Source: a virus (Duplodnaviria > Heunggongvirae > Uroviricota > Caudoviricetes). From it: DNA of 55,493 nt. This document shows, piece after piece, positions 1 to 8,067 of this stretch (position 1 is its first letter; the number at the start of each line of letters is the position of its first letter). A program made the translations under genes and the position numbers. The stretch is taken from IMG/VR virus record IMGVR_UViG_2663763400_000006; one strand, 5' to 3'. The notes under the pieces were generated by a model. It searched no databases and was not told the DNA's origin. It saw only the letters and a list, made by a program, of their open reading frames with translations.

Positions 1-1164
1 TTACGCCTTCTTTATATCCTCCATAATTCCAGAGTGGGACATATTTGGGACATTATCACCAAAAATGTCGTCTATTTTCCTCGCATGCTCTGTCAAATGA
101 TTAGGCGCAAGGTGAGCATACCTACGAACCATTTCTATGGACTCCCATCCGCCCATTTCCTGAAGCACTGATAATGGGACGCCTGACTGAATCAGCCAGC
201 TTGCCCAGGTGTGTCTGAGGTCATGGAAACGGAAATCTTCAATTCCTGCACGACGACAAGCTGATAGCCATGATGTCTTGCTGTCGATGCGCATCTTCCT
301 GACCGCAGGCGTTGATGTTCCATCTGCTCGCTTAGCCGCCTTGGTATGTACAAACACCCATTTGTGATGCTTGCCTATTTGATCACGCAACACTTTACAG
401 GCGGTATCGTTCAGCGCCACACCAATGGCGCGGTTTGATTTGCTCTCTTCTGGATTCACCCAGGCAACTCGTCGCTGCATGTCGATTTGTTGCCATTCCA
501 GATTTATGATGTTCGACTTTCTCAGACCAGTTGCCAGCGCAAACTTGACGACAGATTTCAGTGGTTCGGGGCACTCATCAATAAGGCGTTTTGCTTCCTC
601 CTTTTCCAGCCATCTGACTCGCTTGTTTCTGACCGCTGGTATCTTGATGACAGGCGCTTTTTCCAGCCACTTCCAGTCGCGTTCTGCAGCACGGAGAATG
701 GCCTTTATCATGGCAAGATGCTTTGCCTTTGTCTGAGTTGATACTGGCTTTGGTTCATAAACAGGCGGTTCTTTACCTTTCCTGATGGCGGCCTGAACTT
801 TCTGTTTCCATATTTCTTTCGTCTTTCTGTTATGCATTCTGCTTACAGCAGAGTAAATCTTTGCCTCCGAGATATCTTTAAGCCTTATACCCTCAAAATG
901 TTCAAGCCAGAACTCAATCCGGCTTTTATCTGAATCGAGAGATTTTTTATCAGCTTTTTCCTCAAGCCATCTTAGGCAGGCCTCTTCAAAAGTGACATCA
1001 GGTAAATCCCCTAGCTTTTCTACTCGCCAGAGTTCTGCTTTTCGCTTGTCGTGCAACTCCTGAGCTTGCCGCTTGTCCTTTGTGCCAAGAGATTCCTTAA
1101 TTCGTTTCCCGCCCGGGAGCGAATACGAGGCATACCATATTTCATTTCTGCGGAAGAGTGACAT
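1..1164 (-). CDS. int: Phage tyrosine integrase
   Basis: 387-aa ORF with C-terminal tyrosine-recombinase motifs (HDLRHTWAS...LGGW...VRRYAHL); first gene of the leftward early operon, followed by xis-like ORF. Confidence 0.9.
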
Positions 1165-4108: not shown

Positions 4109-4405
4109 TTATACCTCTGAATCAATATCAACCTGGTGGTGAGCAATGGTTTCAACCATGTACCGGATGTGTTCTGCCATGCGCTCCTGAAACTCAACAT
4201 CGTCATCAAACGCACGGGTAATGGCTTTTTTGCTGGCCCCGTGGCGTTGCAAATGATCGATGCATAGCGATTCAAACAGGTGCTGGGGCAGGCCTTTTTC
4301 CATGTCGTCTGCCAGTTCTGCCTCTTTCTCTTCACGGGCGATCTGCTGGTAGTGACGCGCCCAGCTCTGAGCCTCAAGACGATCCTGAATGTAATAAGCG
4401 TTCAT
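4109..4405 (-). CDS. gam: Gam, host RecBCD inhibitor (short form)
   Basis: 98 aa, [60 protein letters not shown]... matches the C-terminal 98 aa of lambda Gam; no long-form N-terminal extension is open upstream. Confidence 0.9.
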
Positions 4406-4543
4406 GGATAAACTCCTGAAATTTTGATGTGCGGATCCAGACAGTGCGTTAACTGCATAGTTGTTTGAATGAACTCGCTTGATTAATCAAAATGTTGGAT
4501 CACACTATGTCTTGCTCAAAATCTGATAAATAAGGTGTCTAGA

Positions 4544-4849
4544 ATGCTGATTGATAAGTTAAAGTCTTCTCCGATGTACCCAACCGCAGAAATGGGTAAG
4601 CAGTCGAAAAAGAATCATTGGTATGTAAGGGAAAAGGGGAGTGATCAACCGCAAGACCAGACCTGGAGAGCTTGGTGGGAATCTCGCTCGCTTGGCAAAG
4701 GCCATATCAATTGGAGATCTACATGCGTAGCAGAAAATGTACTCGATCCATTCAATCCGCCATCTCGGTTTGAGGTTGATTTCAAAGCCCCTGATGGGAG
4801 TATCTACAACCTTGAATTTGCTTTGGCTCCACACGGCCCAAACAAGTGA
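4544..4849 (+). CDS. Hypothetical protein (possible moron, opposite to early-left transcription)
   Basis: ORF with ATG at 4544 preceded by AAGGTG Shine-Dalgarno (the ORF-track start at 4535 is GTG); no recognisable domain. Confidence 0.4.
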   Translation: MLIDKLKSSPMYPTAEMGKQSKKNHWYVREKGSDQPQDQTWRAWWESRSLGKGHINWRSTCVAENVLDPFNPPSRFEVDFKAPDGSIYNLEFALAPHGPNK

Positions 4850-4853
4850 GTAG

Positions 4854-5144
4854 TTAGTGGCTCAGACCACCGCCAGTACCATTCAGGTAAACCTCCACGA
4901 GCAAATCTTTTGTGTACGTTCGTTCGATGCCGCGATGCAAGTAAAGCCGACCGCGCAAATTAGCTGATGCCGTCCAGGTACCATCTTTGTGTTTAACCAG
5001 CATACCTGGCCGGACGGCACCGCGATTAACGGTCTGAGTTCCGTAATGTTGATGAACCATAAAAACTCCTGCCCGTAAGCTGGGCTGCTGAACATATAGA
5101 GACTTCTGCGCGTATTCAGGCGGTGGATGGCCGCCGGTTGTCAT
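4854..5144 (-). CDS. Hypothetical protein, first ORF downstream of the putative pL/OL
   Basis: 96-aa ORF in the position where lambda has N, but it lacks an arginine-rich N-terminal motif. Confidence 0.3.
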   Translation of the reverse strand: MTTGGHPPPEYAQKSLYVQQPSLRAGVFMVHQHYGTQTVNRGAVRPGMLVKHKDGTWTASANLRGRLYLHRGIERTYTKDLLVEVYLNGTGGGLSH

Positions 5145-5340
5145 AACTAAGCCGCCTCGTTGAAGCGACTGAGGTATGAAGTGTTGAGTTGATTTCAGCT
5201 GGTCACACCGACGTTAACGCGTCCGCTTCACCCCTCGCACTCCCCGGAGCCTGCTGAAATTCAAGCTGCGGATCTAAGCGGTCATCGCAACGGCGAATCA
5301 GGTGGTTGCCGTATCGTTGTGTTGTTGCGACATGGTGATA

Positions 5341-5385
5341 ATAGCTATTGCTATTAGTGATATCAATACTTATTGCTATTGATTG
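5341..5385. promoter_or_regulatory. Putative OL operator/pL region
   Basis: Clustered TTGCTATT / ATAGCTATT motifs (atagctattgctattagtga...tattgctattg); the same motif recurs in the cI-cro intergenic region. Confidence 0.4.
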
Positions 5386-5504
5386 ATGCATTTTGATATT
5401 AACTGTTTGATAGCAAAAGGAATTAATTTTGTGACTTGCATCGCATAGCGATAACTGAAGCGGGGGTTATGGTGGTTTTTTGAACGGTGTGTGATGAGGG
5501 GAGG

Positions 5505-5535
5505 CAAAAGAAAACCCGGCACGACGGCCGGGGAA
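5505..5535 (-). terminator. Rho-independent terminator ending the cI operon
   Basis: Inverted repeat cccggc/gccggg with a U-rich tail when read on the minus strand, immediately 3' of the 287-aa gene. Confidence 0.5.
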
Positions 5536-5536
5536 A

Positions 5537-6400
5537 TCATTTCGCATCTACAATAAATAACCTGTTTATCTGGCCTTTTTTAACAGTAGCCTTTGCGGTT
5601 ATAGTGAATACTGCAGATGGATCACCTTTGGTTGATATATATGCACTAAGAGCTCTAATATACGGGTTATTCTTCTTTCCTGCAGCTGGATCGCTAATTT
5701 CAGCAGTGATTCTCTTTTTTGAGTCATCACCATCTAAAATTATTTTAGCTGTCATATTTTGTGCATCAAATTCTGTAAGAAAAGCACGATACTCACGAAG
5801 ACCGAGAACTTCATCATCATCAAGCCTATCAATTTCAGCTTTATCTCTCTCATTAACTTTTAGAAGGCAGCCGTCAACATTTGTTGCAACACTTATCTGA
5901 TCGCAAGTATTACCAATAGGTGATACTGCCTGCCTTACAGAGGGGCGAAGCTCTACAGCCATTCGGTCAATCAAAGAGATCAACTTATCAATGGTTCCAG
6001 CATCCTTGTTTCCTAGTGCCTCTATGGCCTTTTCAAGTGACTGCTGCAAAGCTTTCATTTCATCTTTCTTGTTAGAATTTCTCGCAAAAATATATTGTAG
6101 TATTGCGCCAAGTATAGTTGCGGCGATCCCCGAGAACAACTGGTTCTGAGTGGCGAAGTTAAGAACTGCTTCAAGAGTAAAGCAGTTAGCTTTTGCTTCG
6201 CGTGCGTAAACCTTAACTTCCTGATAATTAATGTATTTACTATATTTTTGTGTAACAGAGAAAGAAGCTGCTGTTGAGAGAACTTTAGAAAAACCCTTTA
6301 GGGATTCTCCTAGGCAGTTCAAATCTATTTCATGATTTAAAGCATCTTTTCCGTCATACCTAAGAGAGATTTTTATATCCTGTAAAGCGTCACAATCCAT
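5537..6400 (-). CDS. Unknown 287-aa protein with one central hydrophobic segment, in the rexAB position
   Basis: ATG at 6400; AT-rich codon usage unlike flanking phage genes; hydrophobic segment [19 protein letters not shown]; co-directional with and 3' of cI, followed by a terminator. Confidence 0.6.
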
Positions 6401-6466: not shown

Positions 6467-7159
6467 TTATCCATGTTTCCTGTACGTCTGGGGCATGCTC
6501 CCAATAACCTTACCGAAGATGAACACCCGGTTCATCTCGTCTTTCTCGATCGGGTCCCACGGTGAGTAGCTCTTGTTATCAGAGATAACCAGCAGCTTAT
6601 CCTTCATCATTTGCAGGCGCTTTACATGGGCGGTGTCGTCGTACAGAAACGCATAGATGCCATCACCGTCGAAAGATTTAACCGTGATATCAACGAACAG
6701 CAGATCACCTGGTTCGATCGTTCCTGACATGCTGTCACCACGCACGTTAATGATGCGGATATTTTCCGCCTTCCTGCCATCGAACATGTGACGAGCATCG
6801 TCAAACGAGTACTCAACCGAGCGTAGGACTTCTACAAACTCACGGTTGATGACTCCCGGCCCAGCACTGACTTCTATATCAAGAACGTCAATCTTGAAGT
6901 ATTTGGAATGGTTGACAGTAGGCTTCCCTGATTGTTGACCGTCATTTCTCATCGGGCCTATGCCTGATGAGAGCCACTCTGTTCGAACACCCAATGCATT
7001 AGCTATTTCAACAATTTTTGTTGAGCCGCGCGCGTTGCCGCTTGTCAGTCTCCAGATTGTGGGTTGAGCTACGCCAGACGCCTTTGCAAGAGCGCCTTGA
7101 GACATCCCAGATTGTTCCATCGCTAGGTTTAAGCGATCAGCAAGAGTTTCTTTTTTCAT
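6467..7159 (-). CDS. cI: CI-type repressor (XRE helix-turn-helix plus S24 LexA-like autopeptidase)
   Basis: N-terminal HTH (MSQGALAKASGVAQPTIWRL), C-terminal peptidase motifs (VRGDSMSGTIEPGDLLFVD ... HVKRL); start taken at MKKETL (7159), the ORF could extend to 7216. Confidence 0.85.
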   Translation of the reverse strand: MKKETLADRLNLAMEQSGMSQGALAKASGVAQPTIWRLTSGNARGSTKIVEIANALGVRTEWLSSGIGPMRNDGQQSGKPTVNHSKYFKIDVLDIEVSAGPGVINREFVEVLRSVEYSFDDARHMFDGRKAENIRIINVRGDSMSGTIEPGDLLFVDITVKSFDGDGIYAFLYDDTAHVKRLQMMKDKLLVISDNKSYSPWDPIEKDEMNRVFIFGKVIGSMPQTYRKHG

Positions 7160-7170
7160 AAGTTTTAATT

Positions 7171-7240
7171 TATACGCTTGCGTATTGATGGTCAAAACAC
7201 GTTTTGCTATTGCCATGGTTAATACGCATTGCTATTATTC
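7171..7240. promoter_or_regulatory. Putative OR operators with divergent pRM/pR
   Basis: cI-cro intergenic region holding repeated ATACGC..GCGTAT and TTGCTATT motifs shared with the putative OL. Confidence 0.45.
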
Positions 7241-7269
7241 ATTCATTGTAATACCAATAGGAATTGATA

Positions 7270-7521: not shown

Positions 7522-8067
7522 ATGATTATGCAACCACTTACATACCAACAGACTAGCGGATTTAGCCCGACTGCGGTGATAAATCGTTCTCAAATAAAAC
7601 AGGTGCCAGGCCACGAAAAAATTCGTGATGCCGTCCGCGCCTGGTCTGCTGAAGATAATCAGGATGTAGTTGCCGCACTCATTGTGAATGAGTATCGAGC
7701 ACAGGGCGGCGGCACCATCGATTTTCCTGATGATGTCAGTCGTGCACGCCAGAAGCTGTTCCGCTTCCTCGATAACAAATTCGATTCTGAAAAATACCGA
7801 AATAACGTGCGTGAACTGACCCCGGCAATTCTGGCGGTACTACCGCTGGAATATCGCGGCCACCTGGTTGAGCAGGATAGCTTCATGGCTCGGCTGGCTG
7901 AAATGGAAAAGGAACTCAGTGAGGCAAAGCAGGCGGTCATTCTCAACGCACCACGCCACCAGAAACTGAAGGAGATGAGTGAAGGCATTGTGTCGATGTT
8001 TCGAGTGGACCCGGATCTGGCTGGTCCATTGATGGCGATGGTCACCACCATGCTGGGGGCAATATGA
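7522..8067 (+). CDS. CII-position regulatory protein, possibly YdaT/DUF1019-like
   Basis: 181-aa ORF directly after cro and before O; family assignment is from recollection only. Confidence 0.35.
   Translation: MIMQPLTYQQTSGFSPTAVINRSQIKQVPGHEKIRDAVRAWSAEDNQDVVAALIVNEYRAQGGGTIDFPDDVSRARQKLFRFLDNKFDSEKYRNNVRELTPAILAVLPLEYRGHLVEQDSFMARLAEMEKELSEAKQAVILNAPRHQKLKEMSEGIVSMFRVDPDLAGPLMAMVTTMLGAI

What the first reader, a model, noticed from the sequence alone, without database searches (positions are those of the whole stretch)
4544..5144. Convergent pair of unknown genes between gam and the putative pL
A plus-strand ORF with its own Shine-Dalgarno (4544..4849) faces a minus-strand ORF (4854..5144) in the slot where lambda has kil, cIII, ral and N. 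Neither resembles those proteins. At least one is likely a moron; the pair could be a toxin-antitoxin or exclusion module.
Basis: inference. Interest (0 to 1): 0.35.

Follow-up and report, generated by a model that had tools for sequence, protein, structure and literature searches.

The report
Orphan prophage gene facing a KilR gene
The two facing genes are unrelated neighbours, not a toxin-antitoxin pair: one is a common prophage cell-division inhibitor (KilR), and the other is a rare, well-conserved small gene of unknown function inserted backwards into the phage's early operon, as the known exclusion gene sieB is.

Summary

**Minus-strand ORF.** It is not unknown. It is a KilR-type FtsZ inhibitor: same PHROG as Rac KilR, 33% identical to it, and 93% identical to phage Perceval Kil. 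It sits in lambda's kil slot. Its real start is almost certainly the ATG at 5060, giving 68 aa at 4854..5060. The upstream 84 nt are 5' UTR.

**Plus-strand ORF (4544..4849, 101 aa).**
- It is a genuine gene. Synonymous sites are saturated, dN/dS is about 0.07-0.10, and the antisense frame is not conserved.
- It is an orphan: no Pfam, NCBIfam or PADLOC hit, no fold match, and one representative cluster among 1.84 billion proteins.
- It is a clean insertion into an otherwise conserved gam-75 bp-kilR backbone. It occurs in 28 of 5426 complete E. coli genomes; kilR occurs in 2229.
- Elsewhere it is always antisense in early-left (pL-type) operons. Its neighbour is kilR, N or other genes. In Raoultella terrigena it sits in the chromosome with no recognisable prophage genes nearby.

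**Reading.** It is best read as an autonomous moron placed like sieB, probably lysogen-expressed. A toxin-antitoxin pairing with KilR is not supported.

**In passing.** The kilR leader carries a widespread RNA hairpin motif with strong covariation support and no Rfam family.

The parts
4109..4405 (-). gam (RecBCD inhibitor). This is the left neighbour and is not part of the inserted module.
   Evidence: Pfam PF06064, E=3e-65. The protein WP_000995439.1 is identical in prophages that lack the + ORF.
4422..4889 (.). Segment that replaces about 95 bp of the common backbone. It holds an AT-rich promoter region, orf101, and the last ~35 bp of kilR.
   Evidence: Alignment with Perceval and with E. 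coli RM19259 gives these breakpoints. Homology runs through the gam start and SD to about 4421 and resumes at about 4889. All roughly 2200 orf101-less E. coli copies begin matching at query position 36, which is window 4889.
4479..4508 (+). Promoter-like site for orf101. It has TTGATT at 4479-4484, then CACACT at 4501-4506 (16-nt spacer) or CACTAT at 4503-4508 (18-nt spacer).
   Evidence: The -35-like TTGATT is conserved at a similar distance from the ATG in 8 of 9 aligned loci. These include the N-adjacent locus and the Raoultella chromosomal copy; it is also present in Yersinia. It falls below the threshold of the strict consensus scan. Promoter function is inferred, not shown.
4544..4849 (+). 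orf101: a 101-aa soluble basic orphan protein (phrog_16212, WP_000904075.1).
   Evidence: - Coding signal: pS about 0.8 against pN 0.05-0.27, dN/dS 0.07-0.10.
- phrog_16212, E=9e-70.
- No Pfam, NCBIfam or PADLOC hit.
- AF2 model with pLDDT 74 and pTM 0.67; no Foldseek hit.
- pI 8.8, GRAVY -0.94.
4854..5060 (-). kilR-type cell-division inhibitor gene (68 aa), the first gene of the pL operon here.
   Evidence: - phrog_294, E=1e-36; Rac KilR falls in the same PHROG at E=7.5e-35.
- NF008465, E=9e-17, but below its curated cut-off.
- 33% identity to Rac KilR, E=2e-11.
- 93% identity to Perceval 'FtsZ inhibitor protein Kil'.
- PGAP names it 'cell division inhibitor protein'.
- GGAG lies 5 nt before the ATG.
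5061..5144 (-). Non-coding 5' UTR of kilR.
   Evidence: It has 1 variable site and none at third positions, against 43 variable sites in the kilR core. Phages Turner (L029) and PhiR30_1 (L033) carry 1-nt indels here. Relatives in other genera start at the equivalent of M29.
5117..5184 (-). Conserved two-hairpin RNA motif in the kilR leader. It is a side finding of unknown function.
   Evidence: - CM R1 scores 89 bits, E=2e-23.
- Covariation on 34 distinct sequences: 97% of cells paired, and 78 double-change cells against 25±3.6 in shuffles.
- The pattern matches at least 120 IMG/VR contigs.
- No Rfam match.
5338..5381 (-). Putative pL (TTGATA-17-TATTAT, 5366..5338) with operator-like ATTGCTATT repeats.
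   Evidence: Promoter scan scores 10/12. The repeats are shared with the cI-cro intergenic region at 7204-7242. Sequence variability rises sharply above 5300, as expected for an immunity region.

Best explanation
The two ORFs are independent genes that lie stop-to-stop.

1. The minus-strand gene (4854..5060) is kilR.
- It is the first gene of the repressor-controlled early-left (pL) operon.
- By homology to Rac KilR, its product blocks FtsZ ring assembly and, at higher dose, MreB. It is made only when pL fires.

2. The plus-strand gene (orf101, 4544..4849) is a moron.
- It is a self-contained cassette of about 430 bp with its own promoter-like region and SD. It was dropped between gam and kilR in the orientation opposite to pL.
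- Inferred consequence: it is transcribed when pL is repressed, that is, in the lysogen. After induction, convergent pL transcription should shut it down.
- No terminator separates it from kilR, so its transcript should run antisense into kilR until Rho stops it.
- Its product is a soluble, basic 11.7-kDa protein with a small alpha/beta fold that matches no known structure.
- My best guess is that it acts in the lysogen as an accessory factor, either phage exclusion or host modulation. This would make it a positional analogue of sieB.

Shown: gene identities, coding selection, the insertion structure, and the independence of the two genes.

Inferred: promoter activity, lysogen expression, and the biological role.
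For: KilR identity: plus PGAP names.

orf101 is coding.

orf101 is a clean insertion:
- Common E. coli prophages and 16 sequenced phages have gam-75 bp-kilR with identical Gam and Bet proteins.
- 28 of 5426 genomes carry orf101, all at 99% identity or more. 2229 carry the kilR and leader region.

Independence from kilR:
- orf101 abuts N instead of kilR in L009 and L016.
- It lies near an N-like gene in Yersinia L027.
- It sits alone beside the chromosomal beta-lactamase in Raoultella terrigena.
- Identities are discordant. For L006 against L010, kilR is 97% identical and orf101 72%. For the window against L004, orf101 is 80% identical and kilR 40%.

Orientation: orf101 is antisense to the early-left operon in every prophage context.

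Precedent:
- lambda sieB (+) abuts N (-) with no gap, and Rac sieB (+) overlaps ydaF (-).
- Genes antisense to lytic genes are described as typical accessory loci (PMC7067206).

Other support:
- A -35-like motif is conserved upstream.
- The upstream region is AT-rich, and the strand skews switch sign across the ORF.
- No terminator-like site lies between the genes.
Against: - No expression data exist. The promoter is weak by consensus (8/12) and failed the strict scan.
- No terminator was found, whereas classic morons carry one.
- Nothing in sequence or fold points to any activity.
- About a dozen loci from several genera (some of them sharing one backbone) keep the exact 4-nt gap to kilR despite saturated synonymous divergence. 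This could mean a functional link rather than simple co-inheritance.
- orf101 has no membrane segment, unlike SieB, so the analogy is positional only.
Confidence: 0.6

Rival explanations
1. Cis-antisense regulator. The main role of the cassette is its transcript, not its protein. Transcription from the orf101 promoter runs into kilR (or into N in other phages). By RNA duplex formation or polymerase collision it damps leaky expression of a toxic or switch-critical pL gene in lysogens. This would resemble type I antitoxin RNAs such as ralA/ralR in Rac.
For: - The stops are 4 nt apart with no terminator.
- In about a dozen loci the convergent neighbour abuts orf101 (0-12 nt) and is kilR or N, both harmful if leaky; in Yersinia L027 the gap is 422 nt and the neighbour is a 100-aa gene of unknown family.
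- The last 35 bp of kilR travel with orf101 in E. coli.
- Rac shows that this operon type uses antisense RNA (ralA).
- In Rac, kilR leakiness is physiologically relevant and is held down by NusG (PMC5793797).
Against: - The ORF is under strong protein-level purifying selection (dN/dS about 0.07-0.10), so the protein matters.
- The Raoultella copy keeps the ORF with no kilR or N downstream.
- In Yersinia the next minus-strand gene is 422 nt away.
- About 2200 E. coli genomes carry the same kilR without it.
- The + strand fold is unremarkable (z=1.6).
Confidence: 0.15
2. Protein antidote or modulator of KilR, similar to a type IV toxin-antitoxin system. In this view orf101 protein, made in the lysogen, neutralises stray KilR or protects FtsZ/MreB.
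For: - Tight and long-lived physical linkage to kilR across several genera.
- The KilR literature states that it is unknown whether KilR belongs to a TA system (PMC12482147).
- The orf101-linked kilR allele differs in the C-terminal tail, the part needed for toxicity in Rac KilR.
Against: - kilR is intact without orf101 in about 99% of the E. coli genomes that carry it.
- orf101 exists where tblastn finds no KilR homologue (L009 and L021). In L027 no called gene carries the KilR Pfam family.
- Divergences are discordant.
- The genes are convergent, not co-transcribed.
Confidence: 0.07
3. Infection-phase counter-defence or host-takeover protein, made from its own promoter immediately after DNA entry.
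For: - It lies among early-left genes that include Gam and Ral-type anti-host functions.
- It is a small soluble orphan protein, as many anti-defence proteins are (my own knowledge, not tested here).
Against: - Its antisense orientation exposes it to head-on pL transcription just when early genes are needed.
- It is retained in a Raoultella chromosomal locus with no recognisable prophage. That fits a host-beneficial gene better than a lytic one.
- tblastn finds no copy in 50,697 sequenced phage records.
Confidence: 0.1
4. Chance ORF or annotation artefact on the + strand. In this view the real gene, if any, is the 91-aa minus-strand ORF at 4559..4834, co-directional with pL.
For: ORFs of this length arise by chance, and the window has a 91-aa antisense ORF here.
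Against: - The minus-strand frame is open only in the window and is broken in all 7 other loci.
- The + frame is open in all of them with third-position-dominated variation.
- GC and AT skews favour + strand coding.
Confidence: 0.01

Closest known systems
KilR of the E. coli Rac prophage (phrog_294, NCBIfam NF008465, Pfam PF27398)
   Same: - Full-length homology: 33% identity, E=2e-11, same PHROG.
- About 70 aa, with a basic pI of 10.1.
- It lies in the early-left operon beside the recombination genes.
- Close copies are annotated as FtsZ or cell-division inhibitors.
   Different: - 68 aa against 73 aa, with a shorter C-terminal tail. That tail sets toxicity strength in Rac KilR (PMC12482147).
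- It scores below the NF008465 cut-off (60.8 against 92 bits), so it is a sister subfamily of the phi80/Perceval type.
- Its leader carries a different RNA element from Rac's KilS.
- Activity was not tested here.
lambda Kil (phrog_3924/2461)
   Same: It occupies the same slot, immediately promoter-proximal to gam in the pL operon, and has the same reported target, FtsZ (PMC12482147).
   Different: There is no detectable sequence similarity and the PHROGs differ. It is an analogue, not a homologue.
sieB of lambda, P22 and Rac (superinfection exclusion moron)
   Same: - sieB is also a plus-strand gene embedded antisense in the early-left operon, ending at or inside the stop of the next minus-strand gene.
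- In L009 and L016 orf101 abuts the stop of N, as sieB does in lambda.
- sieB is expressed from the prophage (PMC10883804 abstract).
   Different: - No sequence similarity (E=0.3).
- orf101 is 101 aa and hydrophilic (GRAVY -0.94). SieB is 162-184 aa in Rac and lambda.
- No exclusion phenotype is known for orf101.
Prophage accessory ('moron') loci encoded antisense to lytic genes, such as STMMW_20121 of ST64B
   Same: It is independently placed, antisense to lytic genes, and absent from close relatives of the phage (PMC7067206).
   Different: Those loci were defined by measured lysogen transcription. For orf101 there are no expression data and no terminator.

Membership tests
KilR-type FtsZ inhibitor (phrog_294 / NF008465 / PF27398) | Significant full-length sequence similarity to Rac KilR | tested here: met
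   BLASTP gives 33% identity, E=2e-11. phrog_294 scores E=1.4e-36 for the window protein and E=7.5e-35 for Rac KilR.
KilR-type FtsZ inhibitor (phrog_294 / NF008465 / PF27398) | Score above the curated NCBIfam subfamily cut-off (92 bits) | tested here: not met
   60.8 bits, E=9e-17. It is homologous but outside the narrow Rac subfamily. PF27398 seems absent from the local Pfam copy (no hit), although precomputed tables assign it to the 67-68-aa homologues in L004, L006, L010, L014 and L017.
KilR-type FtsZ inhibitor (phrog_294 / NF008465 / PF27398) | Beta-rich core with a short disordered C-terminal tail required for toxicity | tested here: inconclusive
   The single-sequence AF2 model is poor (pLDDT 49) and shows only two strands. 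The alignment shows a 9-residue tail against 12 in Rac.
KilR-type FtsZ inhibitor (phrog_294 / NF008465 / PF27398) | Inhibits Z-ring formation and is toxic when expressed | not testable with these tools
   This needs expression and microscopy. It is inferred from homology and from PMC12482147 and PMC5793797.
lambda Kil | Sequence similarity to the 47-aa lambda Kil | tested here: not met
   No BLASTP alignment at E<=100, and the PHROGs differ.
Toxin-antitoxin pair (orf101 + kilR) | The two genes co-occur obligatorily | tested here: not met
   - kilR occurs in 2229 E. coli genomes and orf101 in 28.
- orf101 occurs with no KilR homologue in L009 and L021 (tblastn).
- No KilR Pfam family is called in L027.
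Toxin-antitoxin pair (orf101 + kilR) | Co-transcription, or an antitoxin that neutralises the toxin | not testable with these tools
   The genes are convergent, so they are not one operon. Neutralisation needs a co-expression test. The tools here do not offer complex prediction.
Moron (autonomous accessory cassette in a prophage) | Present as a discrete insertion between genes that are adjacent in related phages | tested here: met
   gam-75 bp-kilR is found in Perceval, in 6 further phages and in 3 E. coli prophages. The window has 448 bp in that position.
Moron (autonomous accessory cassette in a prophage) | Own promoter and own terminator | tested here: inconclusive
   A conserved -35-like TTGATT and an SD are present, but the site is below the scan threshold. 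No terminator was found.
Moron (autonomous accessory cassette in a prophage) | Base composition differs from the flanks | tested here: met
   The upstream region is 38% GC and the ORF 44-48%, against 51-54% in gam, bet and exo. The difference is modest.
Moron (autonomous accessory cassette in a prophage) | Expressed from the repressed prophage | not testable with these tools
   No transcript data are available. This is inferred from the antisense orientation (PMC7067206).
SieB superinfection exclusion | Sequence similarity to SieB | tested here: not met
   BLASTP against Rac SieB gives E=0.3. orf101 matches only phrog_16212, not SieB's phrog_6399 or phrog_1301.
SieB superinfection exclusion | Antisense position in the early-left operon, converging on the next gene | tested here: met
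   This shows how it is arranged, not what it does.

The most novel reading that the evidence does not exclude
orf101 founds a previously unrecognised family of single-gene, lysogen-expressed protective factors with a new small fold. It would act as a phage-exclusion or anti-toxicity protein. It spreads as a roughly 430-bp cassette among early-left operons of Enterobacterales prophages and has been kept by the host in Raoultella terrigena.
Probability: 0.2. Interest if true: 0.55.

Novelty: new member of a known kind. Interest (0 to 1): 0.3.

Why it matters
- The result removes a false lead. The pair is not a cryptic toxin-antitoxin module, and one partner is an ordinary kil gene found in 41% of complete E. 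coli genomes.
- What remains is a small orphan gene that is strongly selected, mobile and oriented for expression in the lysogen. It survives in a chromosomal locus with no recognisable prophage genes around it. Genes with this profile have repeatedly turned out to be exclusion or defence factors, so it is a cheap and well-defined candidate for a knockout and phage-challenge test.
- The work also corrects the kilR start that several phage records over-extend, annotating 77-139 aa instead of 68 aa.
- It exposes a conserved structured RNA in the early-left operon of many lambdoid phages that has no Rfam family.

Tried and rejected
**orf101**
- No hit in Pfam, NCBIfam or PADLOC, either for the window protein or for all 16 family members at E<=10.
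- A profile search of 1.84 billion representatives gave only its own family plus chimeras. Two weak partial hits (P0021, P0022) look like chance beta-hairpin similarity.
- A profile search of PDB sequences gave nothing below E=0.1.
- Foldseek against PDB and BFVD gave best E=0.4-0.5.
- tblastn against 50,697 phage records found no match.
- Literature searches for its accessions and PHROG id gave 0 papers.

**kilR**
- The single-sequence AF2 model was too poor to use.
- I first thought kilR was disrupted in L005 and L007 because no gene was called there. Translation shows it is intact, so I dropped that argument.

**kilR leader**
- No Rfam hit.
- The whole leader has no unusual folding energy (z=0.25), and neither does the orf101 transcript (z=1.6).
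- No DNA similarity to the KilS region of Rac.
- I tested whether the leader motif is HK022 put RNA and rejected the idea. It has no match at putL. HK022 gives only a 20-bit stem-I-like hit elsewhere, and in phi80 the motif follows N and a terminator.

**Other**
- A GC-rich hairpin lies upstream of the orf101 promoter in several loci. It is absent from the window and is not a canonical terminator, so I did not pursue it.

Full report
**Setting.** The window is an E. coli lambdoid prophage.
- On the minus strand lie int (1..1164), exo, bet, gam (4109..4405) and a cI-like S24 repressor (6467..7216). A cro-like gene follows on the plus strand.
- A promoter-like site, TTGATA-17-TATTAT, sits at 5366..5338 on the minus strand. 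It lies among ATTGCTATT repeats that recur between cI and cro, so it is the likely pL.
- The finding lies between gam and this pL.

**Observation.**
- Both ORFs are present as described. The stops are 4 nt apart, and AAGGTG lies 6 nt before the + ORF's ATG.
- ORF length proves nothing here. The same list contains 91-158-aa ORFs antisense to real genes. I therefore relied on comparative evidence.

**The minus-strand ORF is kilR.**
- It matches phrog_294 'Kil protein for bacterial septation inhibition' at E=1.4e-36. Rac KilR falls in the same PHROG at E=7.5e-35.
- It aligns end to end with Rac KilR at 33% identity, E=2e-11.
- It is 93% identical to the 'FtsZ inhibitor protein Kil, phi80 Kil homolog' of phage Perceval.
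- It hits NCBIfam NF008465 'FtsZ inhibitor protein' at E=9e-17, but below that subfamily's cut-off.
- Rac KilR inhibits FtsZ and, at higher dose, MreB. It needs its C-terminal tail, and in Rac it is kept silent by NusG-dependent termination (PMC12482147, PMC5793797).

**The kilR start is at 5060.** The gene most likely starts at the ATG at 5060, giving 68 aa, for four reasons.
- PGAP calls it there.
- Homologues in other genera begin at the equivalent Met.
- GGAG lies 5 nt upstream of that ATG.
- The 84 nt at 5061..5144 have one variable site and none at third positions, while the core varies 6/9/28 by codon position. Two phages have 1-nt indels in that stretch.

The kilR and leader region occurs in 2229 of 5426 complete E. 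coli genomes.

**The plus-strand ORF (orf101) is a real gene with no known relatives.**
- Eight homologues from different loci keep the + frame open. Synonymous differences are saturated (pS about 0.8) while pN is 0.05-0.27. Where it can be computed, dN/dS is 0.07-0.10. Variable columns by codon position run 42/38/87.
- The overlapping 91-aa minus-strand ORF is open only in the window.
- Strand skews switch sign across the ORF.
- The family is tiny. The word-indexed search found 19 clusters. A profile search of 1.84 billion representatives found one full-length cluster. Only 2 of 185,579 species-representative genomes carry it.
- Named members come from E. coli, Shigella, Klebsiella, Enterobacter, Citrobacter, Lelliottia, Raoultella, Cronobacter and Yersinia. 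All are labelled 'hypothetical'.
- It has no Pfam, NCBIfam or PADLOC match, no PDB sequence match, and no copy in 50,697 phage records.
- An AF2 model from 16 sequences (pLDDT 74, pTM 0.67) shows two helices packed on a three-stranded sheet. It has no Foldseek match in PDB or BFVD.
- The protein is hydrophilic and basic: GRAVY -0.94, pI 8.8.

**orf101 is an insertion.**
- Perceval, six other sequenced phages and three sampled E. coli prophages have gam-75 bp-kilR. In the two of those three prophages where both were compared, Gam and Bet are identical to those of a strain whose prophage matches the window at 100% across the pair.
- The window has 448 bp in that position.
- Homology is lost after the gam SD, at about 4421, and regained about 35 bp inside the 3' end of kilR, at about 4889.
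- Every orf101-less E. coli copy starts matching at exactly that point.
- All 28 E. coli copies of the cassette are at least 99% identical, although their flanks differ by up to 5%. This points to recent spread by recombination.

**Are the two genes a functional pair?**

For a link:
- About a dozen loci from E. coli, Cronobacter, Enterobacter, Huaxiibacter and metagenomes (some of them sharing one backbone) keep orf101 exactly 4 nt from the kilR stop. The 4 nt themselves differ, and the upstream neighbour varies between lambda-type Gam, GamL and a 131-aa protein.

Against a link:
- In L009 and L016 orf101 abuts an N-family antiterminator gene instead of kilR. This is the arrangement of lambda sieB and N.
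- In Yersinia it lies near an N-like gene with a 422-nt gap.
- In Raoultella terrigena it sits beside the chromosomal class A beta-lactamase, with no recognisable prophage genes in the flanking sequence fetched (about 3 kb on each side in L021). A second sample shows the same neighbours.
- tblastn finds no KilR homologue in L009 or L021.
- Divergences are discordant. L006 and L010 share 97% KilR and 85% upstream protein but only 72% orf101. The window and L004 share 80% orf101 but 40% KilR.
- About 99% of E. coli kilR copies lack orf101.

Obligate toxin-antitoxin coupling is therefore not supported.

**Most likely mechanism.**
- orf101 behaves as an autonomous cassette that always lies antisense in the early-left operon.
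- A -35-like TTGATT is conserved about 60-70 nt upstream of the ATG in nearly all contexts, including the Raoultella copy, in otherwise divergent sequence. The -10 is weak.
- No terminator-like site follows the ORF. The + strand beyond the stop is C-rich (GC skew about -0.1), so Rho-dependent termination inside antisense kilR is plausible. This is my inference.
- Orientation against a repressed operon is the known signature of prophage accessory genes (PMC7067206). It is also the layout of sieB in lambda and Rac.
- I therefore rank the readings as follows:
  - an independently transcribed, lysogen-expressed accessory protein that convergent pL transcription would switch off on induction: 0.6;
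  - an antisense-RNA role: 0.15;
  - an infection-phase role: 0.1;
  - a KilR antidote: 0.07.

**Side finding: an RNA motif in the kilR leader.**
- Testing whether 5061..5144 is coding showed that the 240-nt leader is more conserved than kilR itself.
- Part of the leader recurs in HK225, phi80, and Enterobacter and Klebsiella phages.
- The motif lies at 5117..5184 on the minus strand. It has a bulged 16-bp stem I, the linker ACAACC, and a stem II, GGCGG-CCAUCCA-CCGCC.
- An exact pattern from it hits at least 120 IMG/VR contigs.
- On 34 distinct sequences, 97% of cells pair. Seven pairs show compensatory change. There are 78 double-change cells against 25±3.6 in shuffles (0 of 500 reach the observed value). 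Slid controls pair at 29-50%.
- A near-invariant U·G wobble places the fold on the pL-sense RNA.
- Stem II is invariant, but that follows from how the set was collected.
- The motif has no Rfam match.
- It is not HK022 putL. In phi80 it follows N and an intrinsic terminator, and the downstream gene is kilR in only some phages.
- Its function is open.

**Verdict.** One gene is known and common. The other is a new, uncharacterised member of a familiar class, the antisense moron. Interest is modest. It is raised slightly by the strong selection on the gene, its survival in a chromosomal locus with no recognisable prophage genes around it, and the unannotated RNA motif next door.

Noticed in passing
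window 5117..5184 (minus strand): A conserved two-hairpin RNA motif lies in the kilR 5' UTR, about 150 nt downstream of the putative pL.
- It shows strong covariation in stem I: 78 double-change cells against 25±3.6 in shuffles, with a near-invariant U·G wobble.
- It matches at least 120 IMG/VR contigs and has no Rfam family.
- In phi80, HK225 and other phages it follows an intrinsic terminator and precedes varied early-left genes.
- It is not HK022 put. Its function is unknown.
   Followed up: partly
window 5537..6400 (minus strand): A 287-aa DUF7946+DUF7947 protein occupies the rexAB slot between the repressor and pL.
- Pfam scores are E=4e-55 and E=1e-18, with a weak PADLOC PDC-S42 hit at E=1.5e-4.
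- GC content is low (35-42%), and a terminator follows at 5532..5515.
- The same slot in sister prophages holds a SIR2-family protein, an ASCH-domain protein, DUF6932 or a HipD-like gene. It looks like a variable defence-type hotspot.
- No paper mentions DUF7946.
   Followed up: partly
window 5061..5340: There is no N-like antiterminator gene between pL and the first gene, kilR. The 62-aa ORF at 5203..5391 overlaps the promoter and has no family hit. How early-left transcription reaches gam, bet and exo is not explained, including whether it needs antitermination at all.
   Followed up: no
L021 3001..3315 and L026 533..883 (Raoultella terrigena): An orf101 homologue sits at one chromosomal site beside the species' class A beta-lactamase.
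- No recognisable prophage genes flank it, and it keeps the upstream TTGATT motif.
- The cluster has 24 sequence variants, and all the named ones are from R. terrigena.
- This suggests host retention of the gene.
   Followed up: partly
window 4854..4889: In E. coli the last ~35 bp of kilR co-segregate with orf101. They encode the end of the C-terminal tail, which governs toxicity in Rac KilR. The tail reads NGTGGGLSH here and DGRGNGLNH in the common allele.
   Followed up: partly
L002, L028-L033 (phage GenBank records): Kil is annotated with inconsistent lengths: 68, 77, 93, 96, 125 and 139 aa. The annotators extended it into the conserved leader. The 68-aa form is the one supported by conservation.
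   Followed up: yes
window 7522..8067 (plus strand): The cII position is occupied by a 181-aa YdaT-domain protein, as in Rac and in most orf101-bearing loci. It is not a lambda-type CII.
   Followed up: no
P0016, P0018, P0019 (assemblies of sequencing runs): Frameshifted or chimeric versions of the window's orf101 exist in public assemblies. They are identical for 30-66 residues and then run out of frame or fuse to replication protein P. They may be assembly errors or pseudogenes.
   Followed up: no
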